NCBI GenBank assembly: GCA_002050235.1
Contig: MWST01000035.1
Location: 67,693-131,692 of the forward strand
DNA from: Polyangiaceae bacterium UTPRO1
GTDB taxonomy: Bacteria > Desulfobacterota > Binatia > UTPRO1
Direction: 5' to 3'
DNA: 64,000 bases
Part shown: in pieces, positions 19,868 to 47,980 of the stretch
Position numbering within the stretch: position 1 is the stretch's first letter
How the letters are laid out: each line of letters starts with the position of its first letter
Program-made: the position numbers and the translations under genes
The notes under the pieces: model-generated
Told to the model about the DNA's origin: nothing
Seen by the model: the letters and a program-made list of their open reading frames with translations, nothing else
Database searches by the model: none

Positions 19868-22800
19868 AGATCTCCGCCCGTTACGAGGTTCTAGGCCTCC
19901 TCGGCCAAGGCGGGATGGGCGTGGTGTACCACGTCCGCGACACGACCCGCGGCCGCGAGAACGCCCTCAAGACTCTCGCTCCCGGCCGCTCCGAGGACAT
20001 CATCGAGCGCTTTCTTACGGAAGCACAGGTGATGTTCCGCCTCGAGCACGACAACATCGTGCGCGTCTACGATTTCGGCAAGGACGGCGAAACCTACTTC
20101 CTCACCATGGAGCTGATCCGCGGCAAGAACCTGCGGCAGCTCCTGAATGCCCGTCAGAACAAGGGCTTTCCGCTCGCGGAAGTGATCCGCATGGGTATCC
20201 AGGCGGCTGACGCCCTCAACTACGCGCACAGCCAGAAACCCGAGGCCGTCGTCCACCGCGACATCAAGCCCGTCAACATCATGGTCGAGGAAGAGACGGG
20301 GCGCGTCGTCGTCGCCGACTTCGGCATCGCCAAGCTCATGGCCGACGCCGGCGGCGGCGAGACCCAGATCGGCAACGCTGCGACGCATACGGTCTTCGCC
20401 GGCACCGTGCCCTACTCGGCGCCCGAGCAGTTCCTCGCCGGCGGCGGCGGGCGTCGCCTCGACGCGCGCGTCGACATCTACGCCCTCGGCATCGTCCTCT
20501 ACGAGATCTACACCGGCCGGCACTTCTTCGCCGGCCTCTCCGCCGAAGAGGTCGAGCAGCATCATCGTTCCATCGAAACGGGCGAGTGCCCGGTCAAGCG
20601 GCCACACGCCTGCGACCACAAGATCACGACCCTGCCCGAAGCGCCGCAGGCTTTCATCGAGGTCATCGAGAGGGCGATCGCCCGCGACCGTCACGAGCGG
20701 TACCGGACCGCGGCGGAGATGCTCGCCGACCTCCGGGCCTGCGCGGCCGTGGAGTCGGTTGAGGCCGTCGCCGCCGCGCGCCGCACCGCCGAGGCCGCAG
20801 GCGCGCTCGAGGCGGCGACCACGGATTTCCGGCGCGGCGACGAGCTCGAGCGCGAGGCCCAGGCGGCACGCGAGCGCGGCGACGACACGCGCGCCGGCGA
20901 GCTCTATCGCGATGCTCTCCAGGCATACGGCGCAGCCGCCGCGCAGGCGAACGAGCGTCGCAGCCAACGCGCCGCGCAGCAGGCGAAGACGGCCATGCAG
21001 ATCGTCGCCCGGGAAGCCACCGAGCGCGATCTCACAGCGCTCGCCCCGGAGGCGATGAAGCACGCCGCCCAGCTCGTCGCCACGGCCGAGGCGAGCGAGG
21101 TCCAAGGACAGTACGAGCAGGCAACGGCGCAGTACCGCCAAGCCGAGGAGGCGTTTCGCGCCGCCCTCGTCACGGCACGTCAAGCCAGCGCGCGCAAGGC
21201 GATCGAGGACGAGATGCCGGCGCTCCGCGCCGCCCGGGAGGCTGCCGAGCAGGCCGATGCCGCGACGCTCGCCGCCGATGTGTTCGCCGCGGCCGTCCGC
21301 GAGCAGATCCGCCTCGAGGAGGCGCTCGCCGCCGGCGAGCTGACCCGCGTCCGCGAGCTCTTGCCGCAGGTCCGCGACCGGTTCGCCGCCGCCGGCGAGG
21401 AGGCCGGCCGGCGCCTCCACCAGAGCGTCGACGAGGCCCGTGCCGCCATGCGCGCCGCTGCCGCCGAGGCGACCGCGGCAGACGCTCCCCGGCACGCGAA
21501 GGCGGAGAGCATCGAAGCCGAGGCCCTAGCGGGCGCCGCGGAGAAACTGATCGAGCGCGGGCAGCTAGAGCTCGCCGCAGCCCAGCTTGGACGCGCCGCC
21601 GACGCCTACCGCGCCGCCGCATCGGCAGCGGCCCGAGCCGGCGAGCGGGAGGTGCTCGAGAAAGAGCTGCCCGCGCTCCGAGCGGCGCGCGCGGCTGCCG
21701 AGAGCGCCGGCGCAGCGACGCTCGCGGCCGACACCTTCGCAGCGGCGGCACGTGAGCAGGCCGATTTCGAAGCCGCCCTCGCCGCCGGCGAGCTGACCCG
21801 CGTCCGCACGCTCCTGCCGCGGGTCGGCGATGGCTTCGCCGCCGCCAGGCAAGCAGCGATCCTCGCCCAGGCAAGCCGCGCCGCGCTCGCGGCCCGCTCC
21901 GCCATGGCGGCCGCACGCGACGCCGCTATCGCCGCCGGCGCCGAGCAGCTCGTCCCCGACGCGCTCGCCCGGGTCCGCGCGCGCGAGCGCGAGGCCGCCG
22001 CTGCGGAAGAGGACCGGCAATGGGACCGTGCCGAGCAGCTCTACCGTGAGGTCGCGACGGCGTTCGACGAGGTCCGCGCTGCGGCGCTGCGGCGTGCCGA
22101 GGAGGAGCGTCTGGCCGCGGCGCTGGTCGAAGCCCGGAGCTCGATGGAAGCGGCACGGACACGCGCCAGGAACGCGGGAGCCGAGCGCTACGCAGCGGCG
22201 CTAGTAGCCGAGGCGGATGCGCTCGCACAACAGGCCGGCGGAGCCGCGAACGACGCCGCCGGCATGGCGTCAGCGGCCGCCGACTACGCGCGCGCACGCG
22301 AGCGCTACGACGCCGCGATCACCGAGGCCGCGCGTGTCGCTCGCCGCCACGAGCTGCGGGAGACCCTGGCCACCGTCGCCGCGGCGAAGCAGCAAGCGGT
22401 CGATGCCGGCGCTGACGAGACCGCCGAGTTCATAGCCGCGGCCGACGAGCTCGCCGCGGCCGAACGAGCGCTCGCTGCCGACGAGCTGAGCCTCGTCGTG
22501 AGCTCCGCGGCGGCGGCCCGTGAGCGCTTCGCCGCCGCCGAGAACGCCGCTGCGCGCGCCAAGATCGAGGCCGCCGCCGACACGGCGCTCGCCGACGCCG
22601 CGGCGGCCGGAGCGGAAGCGCGGGAGGCAGGCGCCGAAACGCTCGCCGCCGCGGCTTGGGCCGTCGCCGTCGAACAGCAGCAGCGGGCGCTCGCACGCCG
22701 CCGGGACGGCGACTGCAACGCCGTCCCGGGGATCGCCGCGGAAGCCGAGCGGGCGTTCGCAGCCGCGCTCGAGGAGGCCGTGCACGCGGCCTACGAGAGC

Positions 22801-38348: not shown

Positions 38349-39437
38349 TCATTGCAACCGCCCGCGCACGAAGCTGGTGGCAAGCGTCAGCGTGGCCACG
38401 GCAATGACGGCCAGCGGCCACAGGCTGGCCAGGATGTCGCCGGGGGGCATGGCCTTGAGAAAGCTGCCTTCGACGATGACCAGGAAGTGAGTGAGCGGAA
38501 TCACCTGCGCCAGCCACCGCAGCGCCAGCGGCATATTCTCCACCGGGGTGGCGAAGCCCGACATCAGCACCGCCGGGACGCCAATGGCGAACGCTCCCAG
38601 GATGGCCTGTTGCTGCGTCATGCTGACCGCGGAAATCATCAAGCCGATACCCACTACCGACAGGATGAATAGCACCAGGCTGGCGAGAAGCAGCACGGAC
38701 GAGCCCGTGAACGGAATTCCGAAGCCGAACACGGCGGCGCCGACCATGAACAGGCCGAGCACGGTGCCAATTGCCAGTGCCGGCAGCGACTTGGAGACGA
38801 TGATTTCGGGCGTCGAAGTGGGCGAGACCAGCAATTGGTCGAAGGTGCCCAGCTCGCGCTCGCGCGCGATCGACAGCGAGGTGATGAGCAGGGAGCTGAA
38901 CAGCGCCAAGATGCCCGTCAGACCCGGAACGACGAACCAGCGGTAGGTCAGGTTCGGGTTGAACCAGTGGCGCACGACCACGGGCGTCGGTGCCTGCGCG
39001 TCGGGCACGACTTCGGCGCCAACGTCGGCCGCGATCGTGGACAGGTAGCTCACCGTGATCTGACCCGAGTTGCTGCGCCGCCCGTCGACCAGCACTTGGG
39101 CACGAGCGCTGCCGCCGGCGGCAATCGTGCGCGAGAAGTCTACGGGAATGGCTAGTGCGGCAATCACCTCGCCGTAGTCGATCAGCTCACGCAGCTGGTG
39201 CTGGCTGCCCACGTGGCGTACGTGCGCAATGAAGCGTGCGCTATGTAACCGCTGCACCATCTCGTACGACCAACGACCTGAATCCAGGTTGTAGACCGCG
39301 ACGTCTACGTTGCGCACCTCCAGCGTCGCAGCGAATGCAAAGACCAGAAGCTGGAGGATGGGCGGTACGAACACCACCATGCGGCTGCGCGGGTCGCGCA
39401 ACACGCTCAGGACTTCCTTCACGAACTGCGCACGCAA
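38349..39437 (-). CDS. ABC-2 type exporter permease (YbhR-like)
   Basis: 362 aa with one N-terminal TM helix, a large periplasmic loop and a C-terminal cluster of TM helices. Last gene of the TetR-HlyD-ABC operon. Confidence 0.8.
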   Translation of the reverse strand: MRAQFVKEVLSVLRDPRSRMVVFVPPILQLLVFAFAATLEVRNVDVAVYNLDSGRWSYEMVQRLHSARFIAHVRHVGSQHQLRELIDYGEVIAALAIPVDFSRTIAAGGSARAQVLVDGRRSNSGQITVSYLSTIAADVGAEVVPDAQAPTPVVVRHWFNPNLTYRWFVVPGLTGILALFSSLLITSLSIARERELGTFDQLLVSPTSTPEIIVSKSLPALAIGTVLGLFMVGAAVFGFGIPFTGSSVLLLASLVLFILSVVGIGLMISAVSMTQQQAILGAFAIGVPAVLMSGFATPVENMPLALRWLAQVIPLTHFLVIVEGSFLKAMPPGDILASLWPLAVIAVATLTLATSFVRGRLQ

Positions 39438-39471
39438 GCGGATCGGGTTGAAAGTTGCTGCGAACAGCGCC

Positions 39472-40640
39472 CTACTCCAGGTTCTTCCGCGTGGCGCGCT
39501 TCGCCGCCAGGAAGAACAGGACTCCGGTTGCCGTCATCGCCGCCAAGTCGGGTACGAAGACCGCCCAGATGTCGCCCACGAGGAATACGGTCTTGAGCGT
39601 TTCGACGAAGTAGCGTGCCGGAATCAGCCACGTCGCGACCTGGATCACCGCCGGCATCGCTTCGATCTCGTACAGGAACCCGGAGAGCATGAACGCCGGC
39701 AGGAAGCCGGTGAAGAGCGCGATCTGCGCAGCCAGGAATTGGTTGCGTGCGAGCGAGGAGATCAGCAGCCCCTGACCCAGCGCGGGCACCATGAAAGCTG
39801 CCGAGAGTAGCAGCAGCGCCGCCAGCGAGCCACGTAGCGGCACGTCGAACACACCCACCGCCAGCGCTGCAGCGCCGAGCGTAGACAGCATGCCGAGCCC
39901 GAAGTAGGGCAGCAGCTTGCCGATCAGGATCTCGACCACCGACGCCGGGGTCGACAGCACTGCCTCCATCGTGCCGCGCTCCCATTCGCGCGCCACCACC
40001 AGGGCGGTGAGCATGGTACCGATGATGGTCATGACGATGGCAATGGCACCGGGAATCAGTGCGCGGCGGCTCTCCAGCTCGGGGTTGAACCAGTAGCGCG
40101 GCTCCAGCAGGATGGCTGGTGGCGACGCTGCCGCATCGAGCCCTGCACCCCAGGTCTGCACTACGCCGCGCGCGTAGTTCTCGACGTAGTTGGCCGTGTT
40201 GGGGTAGGAGCCGTCGGTAATGATCTGCACCAGCGATTCGTTGTCGCGCCGCGCCAGGCGCTGTTCGAAGTCCTGAGGGATGACGACGTAGCCGCGCAAC
40301 TCGCCGGAGATCAGTTTGTCCGCCACCTCCCGGCGGTCGTGCGCAAAGTGTGCATCCAGGAATCGTGTACCGGCGAAAGCGGCCGCCAGTTCCTGCGCCG
40401 CGACGCCGGGTGACTCCAACACCACGCCGATACGCACATCCTTGGCGTCGAGGGACACCGCGTAGGCAAACAGCAGCAGCAGCACCACCGGCAGCACGAA
40501 GGCGATCAGCAGCGTGGAAGGATCGCGCAGTGCCTGGTAGCTCTCCTTGGTGACCAGAGCCAGTAGGCGCCGCCGGTCGAAGCGACGCAGGCCGGCGTCC
40601 TGGCCCGACGCGCCGAGCTGACGATTGGCGGCGATGCTGC

Positions 40641-40644
<4 letters not shown>
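39472..40644 (-). CDS. ABC-2 type exporter permease (YbhS-like)
   Basis: 390 aa with the same topology as the neighbouring permease. Its start overlaps the ATPase stop (ATGA at 40641-40644). Confidence 0.8.
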
Positions 40645-42416
<1,772 letters not shown>

Positions 42417-42417
42417 G

Positions 42418-43452
42418 TCACGATTCCCGGGCCGGCCTGGAGGCCGCGTCCCGTGCATCCACGACGACGGTTACCGGCATGCCCTGACGCAGGCCGGCAT
42501 CGGCGTTTTCTACGACGATGCGCAGGCGATACACGAGATCGGTCCGCAGATCAGCGGTCTCGACTGTCTTGGGGGTAAATTCGGCGCGGGGCGAAATGTA
42601 GCCGACTCGGCCCTGGTAAACCTTGGCGGACGAATCGGAATGCACGCGCACCCGCGTCCCGGGTGCAATGCGTCCCAGATCGACCTCGCCAACGTAAGCG
42701 CGCACGTAGACCGGCGCGTCAAGGCTCAAGATGTAGACCGCACTCTGGCTCACGACCATGCTGCCGGGTTCGCGCACACGCCCGATCACGGTGCCGTTAC
42801 TTGGGGCCATCAGCTCGGTGTCGGCCAACGCCGTTGCCGCCTGCGCACGTTCGGCCAGAGCCGCAGCGAGCCGCGCCTCAGCCGCCGCGATGTCTTCGCG
42901 GCGTGAGCCTTCAAGCGCCTGAGACAGTGCCGCCTTGGTCGCCTGCACGTTGGCGGCGGCCTGCTCATGCGCGGCGCGTGCGGCATCCACCACCTGCTGG
43001 CTGCTAGTGCCCGACGCCAGTAACTCGACCTGGCGCTCGAAATTGCGTCGCGCCTCGGCGGACGCGGCCAGCGCCGCGTTCAGCGCCTCCCGTGCCTGTG
43101 TGATCTCCTGCGGGCGCAGGCCGCTCCGCAGTTTGGCCAGCTCGGCCTGTGCTATCAGCACCGAAGCGTCCGCAGCGGCAAGCGATTCCCGAAACGGCTG
43201 GGGATCCAATGCGGCCATCCGCATGCCGGCTTCGACGACATCGCCCTCGTCGAAGGCCATTTGGGTTACGCGGCCGGGTTGTCGAAACGCAAGGTGGACT
43301 TCGCGGATATCGACGTTTCCGTACAACCGAAGCGATCCACGATCCGGCTCGGCGCGCTGCGACCAAGTCCAGGTCATGAGACCCATTACGAGCAGCACAA
43401 CTGCCAGAACCGAAAGGGTGCGGAACGAACCTAGGTGCATTGCCTTCTTCAC
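42418..43452 (-). CDS. HlyD-family membrane fusion/periplasmic adaptor protein (YbhG-like)
   Basis: N-terminal TM helix SFRTLSVLAVVLLVMGLMTW, coiled-coil middle region and a beta-barrel C-terminus. GTG 43450-43452 is preceded by GGGGAG with a 6-nt spacer. Alternatives are ATG 43491 or 43440. Confidence 0.8.
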   Translation of the reverse strand: MKKAMHLGSFRTLSVLAVVLLVMGLMTWTWSQRAEPDRGSLRLYGNVDIREVHLAFRQPGRVTQMAFDEGDVVEAGMRMAALDPQPFRESLAAADASVLIAQAELAKLRSGLRPQEITQAREALNAALAASAEARRNFERQVELLASGTSSQQVVDAARAAHEQAAANVQATKAALSQALEGSRREDIAAAEARLAAALAERAQAATALADTELMAPSNGTVIGRVREPGSMVVSQSAVYILSLDAPVYVRAYVGEVDLGRIAPGTRVRVHSDSSAKVYQGRVGYISPRAEFTPKTVETADLRTDLVYRLRIVVENADAGLRQGMPVTVVVDARDAASRPARES

Positions 43453-43477
43453 GGCCTGCTCCCCGTGCGTTGCCTCG

Positions 43478-44074
43478 TCACCGTCCGGCACTTATGCCGC
43501 GGCGATAGATCGCGAACGCGGCCGGTGCGTCGCGCCGGATCTCGCTGACCTTGCCGGCCAACAGCGACTGCATCACCAGGCCCTGGACCGTCCCGATGAA
43601 CAGCATTGCGGCGGCGTCGACGTCGAGGTCGGCAGCGATCTCGCTTGCGGCCTGGCCGACTGCGAGCAACCGGCGCAGCCGCTCGGTGTACTGCTTCAGG
43701 AGCATCTGCACCATCCTCTTGGGCAGAGTCTTGCCGGGGCGCTGTAGCTCGCCAAAGAGCATGCGTGGCACGCCCGGATGTCGCGAGATGAAGTTCAGGT
43801 GCGCCATGAACATGGCTTCGAGCGCCGCGAGCGGGGACGCCGCCTCGGTCGCGGCTCGATCGATCAGTGCCAACAGACGTTCGCTGATCCAGGACATCAC
43901 CGCTTCCAGGATCGCGTCCTTGTTCGGGAAGTGCCGGAACAAGGCCCCCTGGGTCAGGCCCATGCGCTCGGCAATGGCCGTCGTCGTAATGTCAGCGGGA
44001 TTCTGCTCGCCGGCCAAGTCGATCACGGCTTGGACGGTGGCTGCACGGCGTTCGTCGGCCGGTAGATATTGCAT
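43478..44074 (-). CDS. TetR/AcrR family transcriptional regulator
   Basis: Start MQYLPADERR (AAGGAA SD upstream). HTH segment TTTAIAERMGLTQGALFRHFPNKDAIL. First gene of the exporter operon. Confidence 0.85.
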   Translation of the reverse strand: MQYLPADERRAATVQAVIDLAGEQNPADITTTAIAERMGLTQGALFRHFPNKDAILEAVMSWISERLLALIDRAATEAASPLAALEAMFMAHLNFISRHPGVPRMLFGELQRPGKTLPKRMVQMLLKQYTERLRRLLAVGQAASEIAADLDVDAAAMLFIGTVQGLVMQSLLAGKVSEIRRDAPAAFAIYRRGISAGR

Positions 44075-44108
44075 ACGTTCCTTTATCGCAGAACCGCCGC
44101 GCAAAGCA

Positions 44109-44122
44109 AGTAATCAATTACT
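44109..44122. promoter_or_regulatory. palindrome, candidate TetR operator
   Basis: AGTAAT-CA-ATTACT is a perfect 6-bp inverted repeat in an AT-rich patch 35-48 nt upstream of the tetR start (44074). Confidence 0.35.
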
Positions 44123-44376
44123 AACTTGACGGAGCGCTGAAGCAGCTTGCAATTCGCTCCGCGTCCCGGGTGAGGTCAGGATGGATTGGCGTGCAGCGAG
44201 CCGCGATCACCGGCGGCGTGCACCGATCTAAAGAACGTCGCTACGCCCCGCACCGAAGCGTTATTTCGCCATCGATCGTCGCCTGCGCCGGGCTGCAGCG
44301 TTCGGCATCGGGTTGCACCAGCATGCCCACTCGGGAGGCGTGAAATTCTCGCGCGTTTTTCCCGCGTGACCTGGCC

Positions 44377-46815
44377 CTACTCCACCGAGCTGCTGGCCTC
44401 CAAGGTCGCTTGGGTCGACGGCGAAGCCGCCAGCGTCAGACAATAAGGGCCGCTGTAGCTCTGTCGCAGAGGCAGGAAATCCTCCAGCACCATGATCTGG
44501 TACTGACCGGTTGCCGGAAGCGCGGTCCGGATCGTATTCGGCAGCCGTCCGGTCGCCGCGCGCAGCAGATAAACTCGGCGGATCATATCGTAGAGCAATA
44601 TCGTCGCCCGTCTTCCGTTTCCGGCCTGCTCCGGATCGGCATTCAATACGATCGTCACCTGTTCGTTCTTGTTGCCGCGGAAAGCGAAGACATCGACGTC
44701 CGGCAGGAATCGGCTCCGGTTGTTTCCGAGGAACGAACAGATCCTCCCGGGCTCCGCCTCTTCACAAGCGTCCCCTACCCCGTTGCCGTCCCGGTCGCTC
44801 TGGTCCGGATTGGCTACCAGCCGGCAGTTATCTACGCAGTCCGGCACCCCATCCCAGTCGCCGTCCGTCTCGGGAACACCGCACCCGCACACCCCCGGAC
44901 CGCTTCCTCCACAAACTCCGCACGCATCCGGCGTCGCCGTACCTCCACAGTTTCCCGTGCAGTCCTTCTGCGCCTCCCCGCAGCAGCCGTGCTCGTTCAG
45001 ACCCGGACCGTTGCAGACTCCGCACGCATCCGGCGTCGCCGTGCCGCCGCAGGTCCCGGCGCAGTCCTTCTGCGCCTCTCCGCAGCAGCCATGCTCGTTC
45101 AGACCCGGACCGTTGCAGACCCCGCACGCATCCGGCGTCGCCGTGCCGCCGCAGGTCCCGGCGCAGTCCTTCTGCGCCTCCCCGCAGCAGCCGTCCTCGT
45201 TCAGACCCGGACCGTTGCAGACCCCGCACTCGTCGAATTTCTTATTGCTACCGTAGACCCCGTCGCATCCGGTCACGGAGATGGTCGTGTACGCGTCCAT
45301 GCGGCGCGGAAATGCCTCGATGTTTCCTGCATGGTCCCGCGCGACGCTGAAAAATCGATATGTCCGACCGTTTATCGCCCCCACGAACAGCGCCGCGGTC
45401 TCCGCGGTCCGGTACAACCAGGGATAGTAGTTCGCGCCATCGTCCGGAGAAAAATAGATGTCGTAGCTCGCGATGCCGGAACCGTCGAAATCCCCGCCGC
45501 TCCAAGTGACCATGAAATCACGGGTCGTCTGGGTTTCCGGTAGCGGGTCCACGTAGCTATACGGCGCCTGATCGTCGATCGTGTTCTCCCAAACGTTGGT
45601 CTCGATCGGATCATTCCGATCGAAGACGATCGACGCCTGGTTCGCCACCTGCGTCGCATCCTCCCTCGGAGCGATCGAAAACGATACCCAGCCCTCACCT
45701 TGCGGAGGCAGCACATTCGGCGGCAAGAATCCGCTGCCGGCATCCGCGGGATCGAACGGCACCATACAGTGGAAATCCGCACCGCAGACGCCTGGATCCA
45801 GCGCCACGAAGCGCCATCTGGCCACTGGCGGCTCGGTTTTCTCGATCCCTCCGGTCACCTTTACCACTACATCCTCGCCCGGTCTCAGATCCACGTACCG
45901 GGTAAAGCTCTGCAGTCCGACGATGCCGAGGAACGTCGCTCTGCCACTCAGACTGAAGGCATCGAATTGCAACGTCCCCGCATCCAGCGAGGGGTCGAGG
46001 ACATCGCGGATTTCAACTATCTGCGCCGGCGCTCCGGCTGAAGGCAGGTTCTCGAAAGTGATCGTGTAATCGAAGGGCTTGCTGCGATCGACGAAATGCT
46101 CCGGACCGTGGCCCAGCGGACCATATTTCGCATTTGGATCCCAGGGTGCGCCCACCCAAACGGGTCTGACCGCCCTACCCTCCGGAAGCGAGCCCGATAC
46201 CGGCTGCGGCTGCGGGTCCGGATCCGGGTCCGGATCTGGGTCCGGATTCGGGTCCGGGTCCGGGTCCGGCGACGAGGATGCAGCGCCAATTGTGATACTG
46301 CGCAAAAATTCATCATGTGCCATCCAGGGCAGAACGGTGAAAAGCACCGACCCGGGCGCAGTCAAAACCCCGGGAAGGACGATATAGGTGTCCTCACTGT
46401 ATTTGAGTGCAGGGACGACATCCGGGTGCCCGAAGTAGTTGTCCACGTAATACACTGCTCGATCGCCGTGCGGCGACTCGGCCACTGCCGCTGTATGGAC
46501 GCCCGTTATGTTGGTGACCTGCCGAATACGCCAGCCATCGAACTGCCCCTGCTGCTCAGGAGCATTCATCGCCGCAGCTATCGCGACGACGAAATCCTCC
46601 GAGGAATCGACGCACGCCTGACCATTCGAGAGGCGAGTCAGCATATTGTCTTCGGCCGTCCGCTCGATTCCTAGTTGGATGATCAGCTCGATAGCGGCGC
46701 GGTCTGATGCCGGCGGCTCGGACGAGGACTGAGCTTCCACGCGAGCGGCCACAAGCCCGAATTCGAGACTGCAAGCCACGAGCAAAACGAGCGATCGGAG
46801 AAGGAGTTTGGTCAT
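44377..46815 (-). CDS. giant modular secreted protein (adhesin-like), described in order from the N-terminus
   Basis: 812 aa with signal peptide [28 protein letters not shown]. Domains in order: an unknown N-terminal domain; a (PD)n tract; DPNAKYGP...[14 protein letters not shown]; an FN3-like block [19 protein letters not shown]...[10 protein letters not shown]. Then come three copies of the 34-aa repeat [34 protein letters not shown]. The protein ends with a TSP3-like segment [32 protein letters not shown] and a PPC-like tail. Confidence 0.75.
44918..45223 (-). repeat. 3 x 102-bp in-frame tandem repeat inside the giant secreted protein gene
   Basis: Units start at 44918, 45020 and 45122 (ccgcacgcatccggcgtcgccgt...). 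Units 2 and 3 differ at 3 of 102 positions by my alignment. Unit 1 is more diverged, and a partial fourth unit precedes 44918. Confidence 0.9.
46202..46270 (-). repeat. hexanucleotide (GGGTCC/GGATCC-like) microsatellite encoding a (Pro-Asp)n linker
   Basis: ggctgcggctgcgggtccggatccgggtccggatctgggtccggattcgggtccgggtccgggtccggc encodes [23 protein letters not shown] on the minus strand. Confidence 0.85.
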
Positions 46816-46827
46816 GGCGTGCCGCCC

Positions 46828-47661
46828 CTAGTTTTCCTCGTAGTGATTCGTTGGCCAGATCGGATAGAAGCCCTCTGGCCTACTCCCGGCAAACCACGCC
46901 TCTATATTGTGCCAGCGCTGCTCCGAACCCCAGTTGATCGTAAAGGTGAGCGGCGCTGAACCGCTTGGAGAGATATCCTTGATATGCAACCTGAATACTT
47001 CGTAGGGCGAGTCGCCGATGATCGCCTCGAATTTGCCGGTCGTGCCCGCAGATGACTGGAAATCCGCCAGATCGAAATCGAATTGATACGTGATCGCGGG
47101 ACCTTTGGGCAGCGCGAGAAACAGAAGACCGGAAGATATGTCGGTATTACCGTCGGCGCCGTATGTCAGGGCATAGGTCGCGATCGAACCCGGACGCACC
47201 CGATCCAATCCGGAAACTCCGACCCAGAGGCTGGATGGACGCAGCTCTTCGACGACCAGATCCATTCTTTCCGTTTGCCGGCCCGGATCATCGCCGTCTT
47301 CGATCTGCAGACGATAGGTGCTCGGTACCGCATCCACCAGCTCGAACCGAACACGCAGCAGAACCGTCGGCTCACCGAATTCATCCTCGAAGACGGTCCG
47401 ACCCAACGTCGACAGGTCACCGACTATCTCGTCGAGCCCTTCGCTCCGCAACGAGATTCTCGTGATATTCGACGGCAGTTTGCCGATGATGGACAACCAG
47501 AGAAAGCCGTTGTTGCCGACCCGACGAGGCGAGATCCCATCGATCACCATCGGCGGCCCCTCGGCAGCCACCGGCGGCGCCCAAGGCAGCGGACAGAGAA
47601 GCGCCAATAGCAACACCGAGAACGACAAAAGGCCGCCGAACAGACGTAATCGATTCTTCAT
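46828..47661 (-). CDS. secreted hypothetical protein (possible IPT/TIG-like N-terminal domain)
   Basis: 277 aa with signal peptide MKNRLRLFGGLLSFSVLLLALLCPLPWA. Located 12 nt upstream of the giant protein on the same strand, with the same lowered GC. Confidence 0.6.
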   Translation of the reverse strand: MKNRLRLFGGLLSFSVLLLALLCPLPWAPPVAAEGPPMVIDGISPRRVGNNGFLWLSIIGKLPSNITRISLRSEGLDEIVGDLSTLGRTVFEDEFGEPTVLLRVRFELVDAVPSTYRLQIEDGDDPGRQTERMDLVVEELRPSSLWVGVSGLDRVRPGSIATYALTYGADGNTDISSGLLFLALPKGPAITYQFDFDLADFQSSAGTTGKFEAIIGDSPYEVFRLHIKDISPSGSAPLTFTINWGSEQRWHNIEAWFAGSRPEGFYPIWPTNHYEEN

Positions 47662-47946
47662 GAAGCCCCCTGCGTCGGAGATGCTGTAACGGGGATCGCT
47701 ACGGAGCGCCCGGACCGCCAGAGCCGGAACGCCGGCCGCTGCCTAGCCGAGAGCCCTTTGCCCTGTCAAGGAAAATCCCCGGCGTCGACCGCTGCGATTC
47801 AGTGTGTGCGACCCGGAGCTCGCGCTGCGAAAGAACGACGGCGACGCGACCCTGGCGGCGGTTGCGGCTACTGCGCCATCACGAGCTCCTGGAGCATCCG
47901 CTGCGGCGACTCCGGTTGCGCCTGTCTCCCCTACGACCGGGTGAAA

Positions 47947-47976
47947 GCCTACGGCCTCGCGCTGGAGGTCGTAGGC
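47947..47976 (-). terminator. hairpin after the aminotransferase-GT2-unknown operon
   Basis: gcctacg(g)cctc-gcgctg-gagg(t)cgtaggc forms 7+4 bp with one mismatch. On the minus strand it is followed by TTTCACC and lies 5 nt downstream of the stop at 47981. Confidence 0.35.
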
Positions 47977-47980
47977 GACA

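What the first reader, a model, noticed from the sequence alone, without database searches (positions are those of the whole stretch)
44105..47980. Lower-GC two-gene island encoding a giant modular secreted protein and a secreted partner
Seen: hand counts on sample 60-nt lines give about 53-60% GC (lines at 46861 and 46981), against about 70% elsewhere (line at 21001). The island holds two co-directional genes 12 nt apart (46828-47661 and 44377-46815), flanked by non-coding stretches of about 300 nt on each side. The 812-aa protein stacks a series of modules. First come an unknown N-terminal domain and a (PD)n linker. Next is a DPNxKxGP...[12 protein letters not shown] domain, which I recall from large surface proteins of Bacteroidota and others, followed by an FN3-like domain. 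Then come three Cys-rich 34-aa repeats with the CGVCNGPG motif and a thrombospondin type-3-like calcium repeat. A PPC-like tail ends the protein. I see no integrase, transposase, tRNA or direct repeats at the borders. Inference: a horizontally acquired adhesin- or toxin-like surface factor.
Basis: partly seen in the sequence, partly recalled or inferred. Interest (0 to 1): 0.6.

Follow-up and report, generated by a model that had tools for sequence, protein, structure and literature searches.

The report
Foreign-looking two-gene secreted surface-protein cassette
Two odd-composition genes form a rare cassette, conserved in a few other bacteria, for a two-part secreted surface protein whose head is an unnamed domain that looks like a cysteine enzyme; it is a useful lead, not a breakthrough.

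Summary
Two co-directional genes (277 aa and 812 aa, 12 nt apart) lie in a stretch of 62% GC in a 69.8% GC genome. That is the lowest 2% of windows, and tetranucleotide usage is in the top 0.7-1.4% for deviation.

Confirmed modules are the (PD)n linker, DUF7619, an FN3-like fold, three 34-aa Cys repeats and one thrombospondin type-3 repeat. The PPC tail is not confirmed, and "giant" overstates 812 aa.

New results:
- The pair is a conserved cassette. All five homologous metagenome loci I fetched have a homologous 243-291 aa partner gene directly upstream.
- The N-terminal domain is an unnamed, very rare family: about 10 true relatives among 1.84 billion cluster representatives. Cys68, His107 and Asp125 are invariant and sit where a papain/transglutaminase-like fold places them.
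- The partner consists of two Ig-like sandwiches. In large single-chain DUF7619 proteins the same piece is fused upstream of DUF7619.
- Homologous cassettes end in a dockerin and are followed by a cohesin-PEP-CTERM gene. This genome has neither.
- None of 40 relatives has an ortholog.
- The Cys repeat varies between 3, 2 and 1 copies among strains.

Horizontal acquisition is likely (about 0.7). The enzymatic function is inferred, not shown.

The parts
47662..47980 (-). 319-nt upstream spacer holding the presumed promoter region. A GGGGG Shine-Dalgarno-like run lies 5-6 nt before the partner's ATG. GC is 68.7%, which is native-like.
   Evidence: the consensus scan found no sigma-70 site on this strand
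46828..47661 (-). Partner gene, 277 aa. It has a Sec signal peptide (about aa 1-34) followed by two Ig-like beta-sandwich domains (about aa 38-138 and 145-265). It belongs to an unnamed family found directly upstream of every N-domain/DUF7619 gene examined.
   Evidence: (7 sequences, 25-32% identity, 24 invariant columns); no Pfam or NCBIfam family
46816..46827 (-). 12-nt in-frame spacer, TAG-GGGCGGCACGCC-ATG, between the two genes. It suggests the two genes are co-transcribed and their translation is coupled.
46732..46815 (-). Signal peptide of the 812-aa protein (aa 1-28, with likely cleavage after VEA).
   Evidence: read from the sequence
46282..46731 (-). N-terminal domain (aa 29-178) of an unnamed, rare family. 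D38, D56, R61, C68, G94, W95, H107, Y122, D125 and Y127 are invariant. The predicted alpha+beta fold puts C68 at the start of a helix, and H107 and D125 on consecutive strands. It is a candidate papain/transglutaminase-like cysteine enzyme.
46165..46281 (-). (Pro-Asp)n / (Pro-Gln) linker (aa 179-217). It is predicted to be disordered, and its length differs between strains.
   Evidence: (D2)
45571..46164 (-). DUF7619 (PF24595) beta-sandwich (aa 218-415), starting at the invariant DPN motif. It is related to the CnaA-like/CLIPPER domains. The candidate isopeptide triad is K230/D271/N392.
45271..45570 (-). FN3-like beta-sandwich (aa 416-515).
   Evidence: Pfam fn3 appears only as a sub-threshold hit in homolog P0068
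44872..45270 (-). Cys-rich region (aa 516-648). It holds three 34-aa CGVCNGPG repeats (102-nt units at 44912-45234) and a degenerate fourth unit. Copy number is 3, 2 or 1 among strains.
   Evidence: (weak ADAMTS5 match, E = 0.025)
44752..44871 (-). Single thrombospondin type-3 calcium-binding repeat (aa 649-688).
44377..44751 (-). C-terminal tail (aa 689-812, plus the stop codon). Its fold is unresolved. PPC is only a sub-threshold hit, and no T9SS, PEP-CTERM or dockerin signal was found.
44105..44376 (.). 272-nt downstream spacer (61.8% GC). Homologous cassettes carry a third gene (cohesin-PEP-CTERM) at this position; no ORF or remnant of one was recognised here.

Best explanation
The two genes are one conserved cassette, probably acquired horizontally. 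Together they make a two-part secreted surface or matrix protein.

Shown:
- The 812-aa protein is exported by a Sec signal peptide. It consists of a rare N-terminal head domain, a flexible Pro-Asp linker, a rigid stalk (a DUF7619 CnaA-like sandwich plus an FN3-like sandwich) and a calcium- and cystine-rich C-terminal part.
- The 277-aa protein is also exported. It is two Ig-like sandwiches.
- The 277-aa protein is homologous to the piece that sits directly upstream of DUF7619 in many large single-chain surface proteins. One protein, P0075, has partner-like, N-domain, DUF7619 and FN3 in a single chain.
- Homologous cassettes end in a dockerin and are followed by a cohesin-PEP-CTERM gene. They are therefore probably docked on the cell surface.

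Inferred:
- The partner binds the 812-aa protein outside the cytoplasm and rebuilds the single-chain architecture.
- The head is a Cys68-His107-Asp125 hydrolase or transamidase of the papain/transglutaminase-like type, held away from the cell on the stalk. It would act on a surface or matrix substrate, on the partner, or on its own chain.
- In this genome the dockerin-cohesin anchor has been replaced by Cys repeats, a TSP3 repeat and an unknown tail, which would attach to something else.
- Repeat-number variation and raised divergence between strains suggest the locus is under diversifying pressure or frequent allelic exchange.
For: Conserved pairing:
- All five homologous loci fetched have a 243-291 aa gene 12-95 nt upstream.
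- Those genes align with the window's partner at 25-32% identity, with 24 invariant columns.

Fusion evidence:
- The partner profile hits the stretch before DUF7619 in 15 large proteins, with E between 1e-24 and 1e-6.
- hhalign gives 98.6% probability against P0075 residues 561-700. In P0075 the N-domain follows at 813-922 and DUF7619 after that.

Head domain:
- HMMER found 12 hits among 1.84 billion representatives, about 10 of them true. All true hits lie directly upstream of DUF7619.
- Cys, His and Asp are invariant in 9 of 9 sequences.
- The AF2 model has pLDDT 70-90 there. C68 is the first residue of helix 68-83, H107 lies just before strand 108-113 and D125 ends strand 121-125.
- Weak hints point the same way. 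One member hits the TseH model at E = 0.014 (TseH is papain-like by my recollection). Protein 4.2, which I recall as a transglutaminase homologue, matches over more than 520 columns.

Stalk:
- DUF7619 scores above its cut-off.
- The literature places DUF7619 among predicted isopeptide-bond domains of fibrillar adhesins (bioRxiv 10.1101/2025.04.25.650565).
- The model has pLDDT of about 90 over aa 225-515, and Foldseek returns FN3 and Ig tandems.

Anchoring in homologs: Dockerin_1 hits on the large proteins, and Cohesin plus PEP-CTERM hits on the third gene.

Foreign origin:
- Composition is deviant.
- 40 relatives have no ortholog.
- The core groups with the split N-domain family, nearest P0069 from a 61% GC contig.

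Variation between strains:
- Variants of 812, 778 and 739 aa exist.
- Island dS is 0.045-0.074, against 0.008-0.009 in the flanks.
Against: - No sequence or fold match ties the head to a named enzyme family. Pfam, NCBIfam and a PDB profile search all came back empty.
- Only the whole model could be searched by fold, and its TM-scores to protein 4.2 are about 0.1.
- No physical interaction between the two proteins has been shown.
- The route across the outer membrane is unknown.
- The C-terminal third is modelled at pLDDT below 50, so the anchoring idea rests on motif identity only.
- The case for horizontal transfer lacks integrase, tRNA or repeat borders and lacks an empty site.
- GC3 is only in the 5th-8th percentile. 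Weakly expressed native genes can reach that.
- Tree support for an outside origin is modest (73/85 and 86/83).
Confidence: 0.55

Rival explanations
1. The cassette is a non-catalytic adhesin. The N-terminal domain is a ligand-binding head, and the conserved Cys, His and Asp bind a metal or ligand, or are structural. Partner and stalk serve only to present the head.
For: - All other modules are of the adhesin or stalk type: DUF7619, FN3, TSP3 and Ig-like.
- The literature files DUF7619 under fibrillar-adhesin stalk domains.
- No enzyme family matches the head.
Against: - A Cys at a helix start, followed by His and Asp on successive strands and invariant in 9 of 9 divergent sequences, is the typical layout of papain/transglutaminase-like active sites.
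- Binding heads rarely keep such a set invariant at 32-51% identity.
Confidence: 0.2
2. The pair is native and was not transferred. It is a fast-evolving, weakly expressed surface-protein locus. Its low GC3 and odd oligonucleotide usage come from relaxed codon selection, repeats and unusual amino-acid content. Relatives have lost it or diverged beyond recognition.
For: - There are no mobility genes, tRNA genes or border repeats.
- The pair is fixed at the same site in all 24 contigs of the species that were read.
- GC3 is only in the 5th-8th percentile.
- Relatives carry many DUF7619 paralogs with a partner-like segment, so the parts exist in the lineage.
Against: - The N-domain and the split architecture are absent from 40 relatives. 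They occur only on unrelated contigs of 44-62% GC.
- The core groups with those contigs' proteins.
- The deviation remains after normalising for base composition, at z = 3.8.
- The adjacent efflux operon is itself clearly a transferred module, which marks this stretch as an acquisition site.
Confidence: 0.25
3. The cassette is a secreted toxin or effector with a helper. The papain-like head would be a toxic peptidase or amidase aimed at competitors (compare TseH-like effectors), and the partner a chaperone, immunity protein or delivery factor.
For: - One family member has a weak TseH hit at E = 0.014.
- The locus is variable between strains.
Against: - The head is N-terminal, behind a Sec signal peptide, on an adhesin-type stalk. 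That is not the layout of polymorphic toxins or T6SS effectors.
- The partner is itself secreted, is Ig-like, and is fused in cis in other proteins. That does not fit an immunity protein.
- There are no secretion-system genes nearby.
- PADLOC and PHROGs found nothing.
Confidence: 0.05

Closest known systems
DUF7619 (PF24595) / CLIPPER (DUF11) CnaA-like stalk domains of fibrillar adhesins (Costa et al., bioRxiv 10.1101/2025.04.25.650565)
   Same: aa 218-415 score above the Pfam cut-off. The domain sits mid-chain between a head and an anchor in a secreted protein. Candidate Lys/Asp/Asn positions (K230, D271, N392) are conserved in 17-19 of 20 homologs.
   Different: There is a single copy, not a tandem stalk. 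The isopeptide bond is not verified; by the paper's supplementary table roughly half of DUF7619 domains are predicted to have one. The constant pairing with an FN3-like domain and an upstream partner-like module does not appear in the parts of that paper I read.
Large CSLREA / beta-helix DUF7619 proteins of the same bacterial family (1,050-1,730 aa)
   Same: They share the DUF7619-FN3 core at 40-45% identity. They also have a segment homologous to the 277-aa partner in the same order.
   Different: They are single chains with a beta-helix head. They lack the N-domain; a different 170-350 aa segment takes its place. The window's version is split into two genes and has a different tail.
Non-cellulosomal cohesin-dockerin pairs
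   Same: The closest homologous cassettes carry a C-terminal Dockerin_1 and are followed by a gene for Cohesin plus PEP-CTERM. This implies surface docking.
   Different: The window protein has no dockerin and its genome has no cohesin. The literature search found no paper that combines cohesin, dockerin and PEP-CTERM.
Transglutaminase-like / papain-like Cys-His-Asp enzymes, such as the bacterial transglutaminase-like cysteine proteinase LapG that trims the adhesin LapA (comparison from memory)
   Same: The order is Cys, then His, then Asp, with Cys at a helix start and His and Asp on following strands. The spacing of 39 and 18 residues is, as I recall, close to that of LapG-type enzymes. The domain is associated with an adhesin-type protein.
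   Different: There is no detectable sequence similarity to any named family. The domain is part of the adhesin-like chain and not a separate periplasmic enzyme. No activity has been shown.
Thrombospondin type-3 repeats and ADAMTS-like CGVCGG Cys motifs
   Same: One TSP3 repeat matches thrombospondin-2 at E = 1.5e-11. The Cys unit weakly matches ADAMTS5 at E = 0.025.
   Different: This is a bacterial context. The 34-aa Cys unit has no Pfam model in the library used, and its copy number varies between strains.

Membership tests
DUF7619 (PF24595) | Profile match above Pfam's gathering score | tested here: met
   52.2 bits against a cut-off of 27, E = 8.4e-14. The D226, P227, N228, G232, F254 and N256 columns are invariant in 20 of 20 sequences.
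DUF7619 (PF24595) | Intramolecular Lys-Asn/Asp isopeptide bond with a catalytic acid | not testable with these tools
   The candidates are conserved: K230 in 17/20, D271 in 19/20, N392 in 18/20.
Thrombospondin type-3 repeat (PF02412) | Profile match above the cut-off, with the Asp-rich Ca-binding motif | tested here: met
   29 bits against a cut-off of 25. aa 650-686 align to thrombospondin-2 repeats at E = 1.5e-11.
Fibronectin type III fold | Seven-strand beta-sandwich that matches FN3 structures | tested here: met
   AF2 gives pLDDT of about 90 for aa 416-515. The top Foldseek hits are FN3 tandems. The Pfam fn3 profile does not hit the window protein; homolog P0068 scores 19.8 bits against a cut-off of 25.
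PPC, bacterial pre-peptidase C-terminal domain (PF04151) | Profile match above the cut-off, or a confident PPC-like fold | tested here: not met
   13.2 bits against a cut-off of 25.9, E = 0.18, although it spans profile positions 1-68 of 70. The AF2 model has pLDDT below 50 here. There is no PDB sequence match.
Papain / transglutaminase-like cysteine enzymes | Catalytic Cys at the N-terminus of a helix, with His and Asp on following beta-strands, all conserved | tested here: met
   C68 is the first residue of helix 68-83, H107 lies just before strand 108-113 and D125 ends strand 121-125. All three are invariant in 9 of 9 sequences. The spatial proximity of the three residues was not measured.
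Papain / transglutaminase-like cysteine enzymes | Significant sequence or structure match to a known member | tested here: not met
   The PDB profile search found 0 hits at E <= 10. Pfam gave only a TseH hit at E = 0.014 in 1 of 9 members. NCBIfam gave none. Foldseek on the whole model matched protein 4.2 at probability 0.84-0.94 but with TM of about 0.1.
Papain / transglutaminase-like cysteine enzymes | Cys-dependent catalytic activity | not testable with these tools
   This needs a biochemical assay.
Horizontally acquired genomic island | Composition deviates from the genome | tested here: met
   GC has z = -2.7 (lowest 2%). GC3 is in the 5th-8th percentile. Tetranucleotide usage has z = 3.6-3.8.
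Horizontally acquired genomic island | Absent from relatives, with the nearest homologs in other lineages | tested here: met
   40 relatives have no ortholog. The same architecture occurs only on unrelated metagenome contigs. The tree groups the core with those, with modest support.
Horizontally acquired genomic island | Mobility signatures (integrase, tRNA, direct repeats) or an empty site in a relative | tested here: not met
   The window has no tRNA genes, no border repeats and no integrase among its ORFs. The relatives' homologs of the flanking gene are not syntenic, so no empty site can be shown.
Cohesin-dockerin surface display | A dockerin on the displayed protein and a cohesin-bearing anchor in the genome | tested here: not met
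   The window protein has no Dockerin_1 hit. The genome has no Cohesin and no homolog of the third gene. Both features are met in the homologous cassettes.

The most novel reading that the evidence does not exclude
The N-terminal domain founds a new family of Cys-His-Asp transpeptidases or proteases. It would covalently join, or cut, the Ig-like partner and the stalk protein outside the cytoplasm. The cassette would then be a self-contained system for building covalently linked surface fibres or matrix in diderm bacteria, assuming the PEP-CTERM third gene of the homologs marks their hosts as diderm. In function it would resemble sortase-built pili, but it would be unrelated to them. In its relatives the product would be docked to the cell by a cohesin-PEP-CTERM anchor.
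Probability: 0.1. Interest if true: 0.8.

Novelty: new variant of a known kind. Interest (0 to 1): 0.45.

Why it matters
DUF7619-type surface proteins are common in environmental diderm bacteria, but their function is unknown.

This locus shows that a recurring base module exists in two forms: a partner-like pair of Ig domains followed by DUF7619 and FN3. In one form it is a single chain. In the other it is a two-gene split, and the split points to a protein-protein interaction that can be tested.

The locus also defines two unnamed protein families, the partner and a rare head domain with an invariant Cys-His-Asp set. It links their relatives to a cohesin-dockerin-PEP-CTERM anchoring arrangement that no paper in the searched library combines.

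If the head is an enzyme, it would be a new family of surface-displayed cysteine hydrolases or transamidases.

For genome interpretation, the stretch is a clear example of a patchwork acquisition site without mobility genes. The cassette lies beside an efflux operon that is shared at 70-90% identity across Proteobacteria and Planctomycetota.

Tried and rejected
- Searches for the N-domain in genome contigs and metagenome contigs by peptide patterns found nothing confirmable.
- The word-index search with the partner profile found only one further protein.
- Foldseek of the whole 812-aa model against PDB and BFVD was dominated by FN3 and Ig hits.
- hhalign of the N-domain and partner profiles against the 170-350 aa segment that replaces the N-domain in fused relatives found no relationship.
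- The PPC identity of the tail could not be supported.
- A synteny or empty-site test failed. The flanking 300-aa gene has homologs in only 4 of 18 family relatives, and in the three loci examined none lies next to the TetR operon.
- My attempt to name the organism through the neighbouring ABC operon showed instead that the operon is itself promiscuous.
- A literature search for the assembly accessions found nothing.
- Toxin-immunity, phage and defence readings are rejected: PADLOC and PHROGs were empty, and the partner is secreted and Ig-like.
- A thioester-domain reading is considered unlikely. The only candidate Gln (Q99) is not invariant (7 of 9), whereas His and Asp are.

Full report
**1. 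Observation**

They are separated by 12 nt and bounded by non-coding stretches of 272 and 319 nt. The spacer reads TAG-GGGCGGCACGCC-ATG, is in frame and holds a G-run that could act as a ribosome-binding site.

The stretch 44105-47980 has 62.0% GC, which is z = -2.7 and the lowest 2.0% of 7,314 windows of equal size. GC3 is 0.73 and 0.69 against a mean of 0.85, the 8th and 5th percentiles of about 2,560 likely genes. Tetranucleotide usage deviates at z = 3.6. After normalising for base composition it deviates at z = 3.8, the top 0.7%. The deviation is therefore real and is not just a GC effect. The right-hand spacer has native composition (68.7% GC), so the compositional island is about 44105-47700.

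The window has no tRNA genes. There are no border repeats and no Rfam family at its gathering score.

**2. Anatomy of the 812-aa protein**

- The signal peptide covers aa 1-28.
- The head domain covers aa 29-178.
- The Pro-Asp linker covers aa 179-217.
- DUF7619 covers aa 218-415 (52.2 bits against a cut-off of 27).
- An FN3-like sandwich covers aa 416-515. AF2 gives pLDDT of about 90, and the top Foldseek hits are FN3 tandems.
- Three 34-aa Cys-rich units are encoded by 102-nt tandem repeats at 44912-45234.
- One thrombospondin type-3 repeat covers aa 649-688 (29 bits against a cut-off of 25; E = 1.5e-11 to thrombospondin-2).
- The 124-aa tail has an unresolved fold. PPC scores 13.2 bits against a cut-off of 25.9, the model has pLDDT below 50, and there is no PDB match.

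An 812-aa protein is not giant.

**3. The pair is a conserved cassette**

An exhaustive HMMER search with the head domain over 1.84 billion cluster representatives gave only 12 hits. Two are spurious matches to Listeria-Bacteroides repeat proteins. The rest are proteins of 546-611 aa with the same order: signal peptide, head, DUF7619, FN3, sometimes TSP3, then dockerin. One 1,323-aa protein, P0075, has the head inside the chain just before DUF7619.

I fetched five of these loci. Every one has a 243-291 aa gene 12-95 nt upstream on the same strand. Those genes are homologous to the window's 277-aa protein at 25-32% identity, with 24 invariant columns.

Neither the head nor the partner matches any Pfam or NCBIfam family.

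**4. The partner is a detached piece of single-chain relatives**

AF2 models the partner as two Ig-like sandwiches (pLDDT 77.5; Foldseek returns integrin legs and Fab fragments).

In 18 genomes of the same family there is no ortholog of either gene. Many of these genomes, however, carry large DUF7619 proteins of 1,050-1,730 aa, several with a CSLREA / beta-helix head. Their DUF7619-FN3 core is 40-45% identical to aa 218-518 of the window protein. The partner matches a segment about 250-350 residues upstream of DUF7619 in the same chains. With the family profile, the match reaches E between 1e-24 and 1e-6 in 15 proteins from several phyla, including Bacteroidota T9SS proteins.

hhalign gives 98.6% probability for P0075 residues 561-700. 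In P0075 the order partner-like, head, DUF7619, FN3 is the order of the two window genes. This fusion is the main argument that the two products work together. The interaction itself is inferred.

**5. The head domain**

Across nine sequences at 32-51% identity, D38, D56, R61, C68, G94, W95, H107, Y122, D125 and Y127 are invariant.

In the AF2 model (pLDDT 70-90 here), C68 is the first residue of helix 68-83. H107 lies just before strand 108-113, and D125 ends strand 121-125. That is the layout of papain and transglutaminase-like Cys-His-Asp enzymes, according to established knowledge of that fold.

Support from databases is weak:
- One TseH-like hit at E = 0.014 in one member.
- A whole-model Foldseek match to protein 4.2, which I recall as a transglutaminase homologue, over more than 520 columns but at TM of about 0.1.
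- Nothing in a PDB profile search.

I could not search the domain alone by fold or measure the triad geometry. The catalytic reading is therefore an inference, at about 0.5.

**6. Stalk and anchor**

[quoted passage not shown] By the counts in its supplementary table, about half of DUF7619 domains are predicted to have the bond. By analogy I propose K230, D271 and N392, which are conserved in 17, 19 and 18 of 20 sequences. This is untested.

In four of the five homologous loci, a third gene follows the cassette. It encodes a cohesin domain with a PEP-CTERM sorting signal, which matches the dockerin on the large protein. No paper in the searched library combines these three terms.

The window's genome has no cohesin and no homolog of the third gene. 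Its protein carries Cys repeats, a TSP3 repeat and an unknown tail in place of the dockerin, so its attachment must differ.

**7. Origin**

The DUF7619-FN3 core of the window protein groups with the split head-bearing family. Its nearest member is P0069 (86/83), and the whole group has 73/85 support. It does not group with the relatives' own paralogs. The P0069 contig has 61% GC, like the island; the other homolog contigs have 44-62%.

Within the species the cassette sits at the same site in all 24 contigs read.

A related strain has flanking genes at 98.5-98.7% amino-acid identity (dS 0.008-0.009). Its island genes are at 95% identity (dS 0.045-0.074), and most replacements are in the head domain. 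The Cys repeat has 3, 2 or 1 copies (812, 778 and 739 aa), and the linker length also differs.

The adjacent five-gene TetR-HlyD-ABC operon is 70-90% identical, gene for gene, to loci in many unrelated Proteobacteria and two Planctomycetota MAGs. The low-GC tract of the window is therefore a patchwork of foreign-looking modules.

Against acquisition: there are no mobility genes, and no syntenic relative shows an empty site. I put horizontal acquisition at about 0.7.

**8. Verdict**

This is a real compositional island. It holds a conserved, rare two-gene cassette for a two-part secreted surface protein. The stalk is of a known kind. The head is an undescribed family that may be catalytic. The partner is the detached base module of single-chain relatives.

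It is a new variant of a known kind (DUF7619-type surface proteins), and its interest is moderate.

Noticed in passing
window 38349-44104: The five-gene TetR-HlyD(YbhG-like)-ABC ATPase-ABC2-ABC2 operon is 70-90% identical at the amino-acid level, in the same gene order, to loci in many unrelated Alpha-, Beta- and Gammaproteobacteria and two Planctomycetota MAGs. None of those loci share the window's other neighbours. It appears to be a widely transferred efflux module (GC 66.1%).
   Followed up: partly
window 44912-45234, and loci L015, L017, L018, L046: The 102-nt Cys-repeat unit is present in 3, 2 or 1 copies in different strains or samples of the same or a close species (proteins of 812, 778 and 739 aa). 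The Pro-Asp linker also differs by 4 residues.
   Followed up: yes
L037:3122-3745, L038:2955-3527, L041:2918-3505, L042:6722-7366: Downstream of four of the five homologous cassettes fetched lies a small gene for a cohesin domain with a PEP-CTERM sorting signal. It matches the dockerin on the preceding protein. This is a cohesin-dockerin display arrangement with an exosortase-type anchor, and I found no paper on it.
   Followed up: partly
G000 C31:23748-24350 (locus L045): The genome has an exosortase-family (PF09721) match above the cut-off, at 35.9 bits.
   Followed up: partly
L033 (G006:C53), L032 (G004:C255), and G004:C339: Same-genus relatives carry several large CSLREA/beta-helix DUF7619 genes, clustered side by side. 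G004:C339 has three within 10 kb. The window's genome, the smallest assembly listed for the genus, has none of them.
   Followed up: no
window 44332-44354: A hairpin lies just after the stop codon of the 812-aa gene. Its T-run is on the plus strand only, so it resembles an intrinsic terminator for the opposite direction to the cassette.
   Followed up: no
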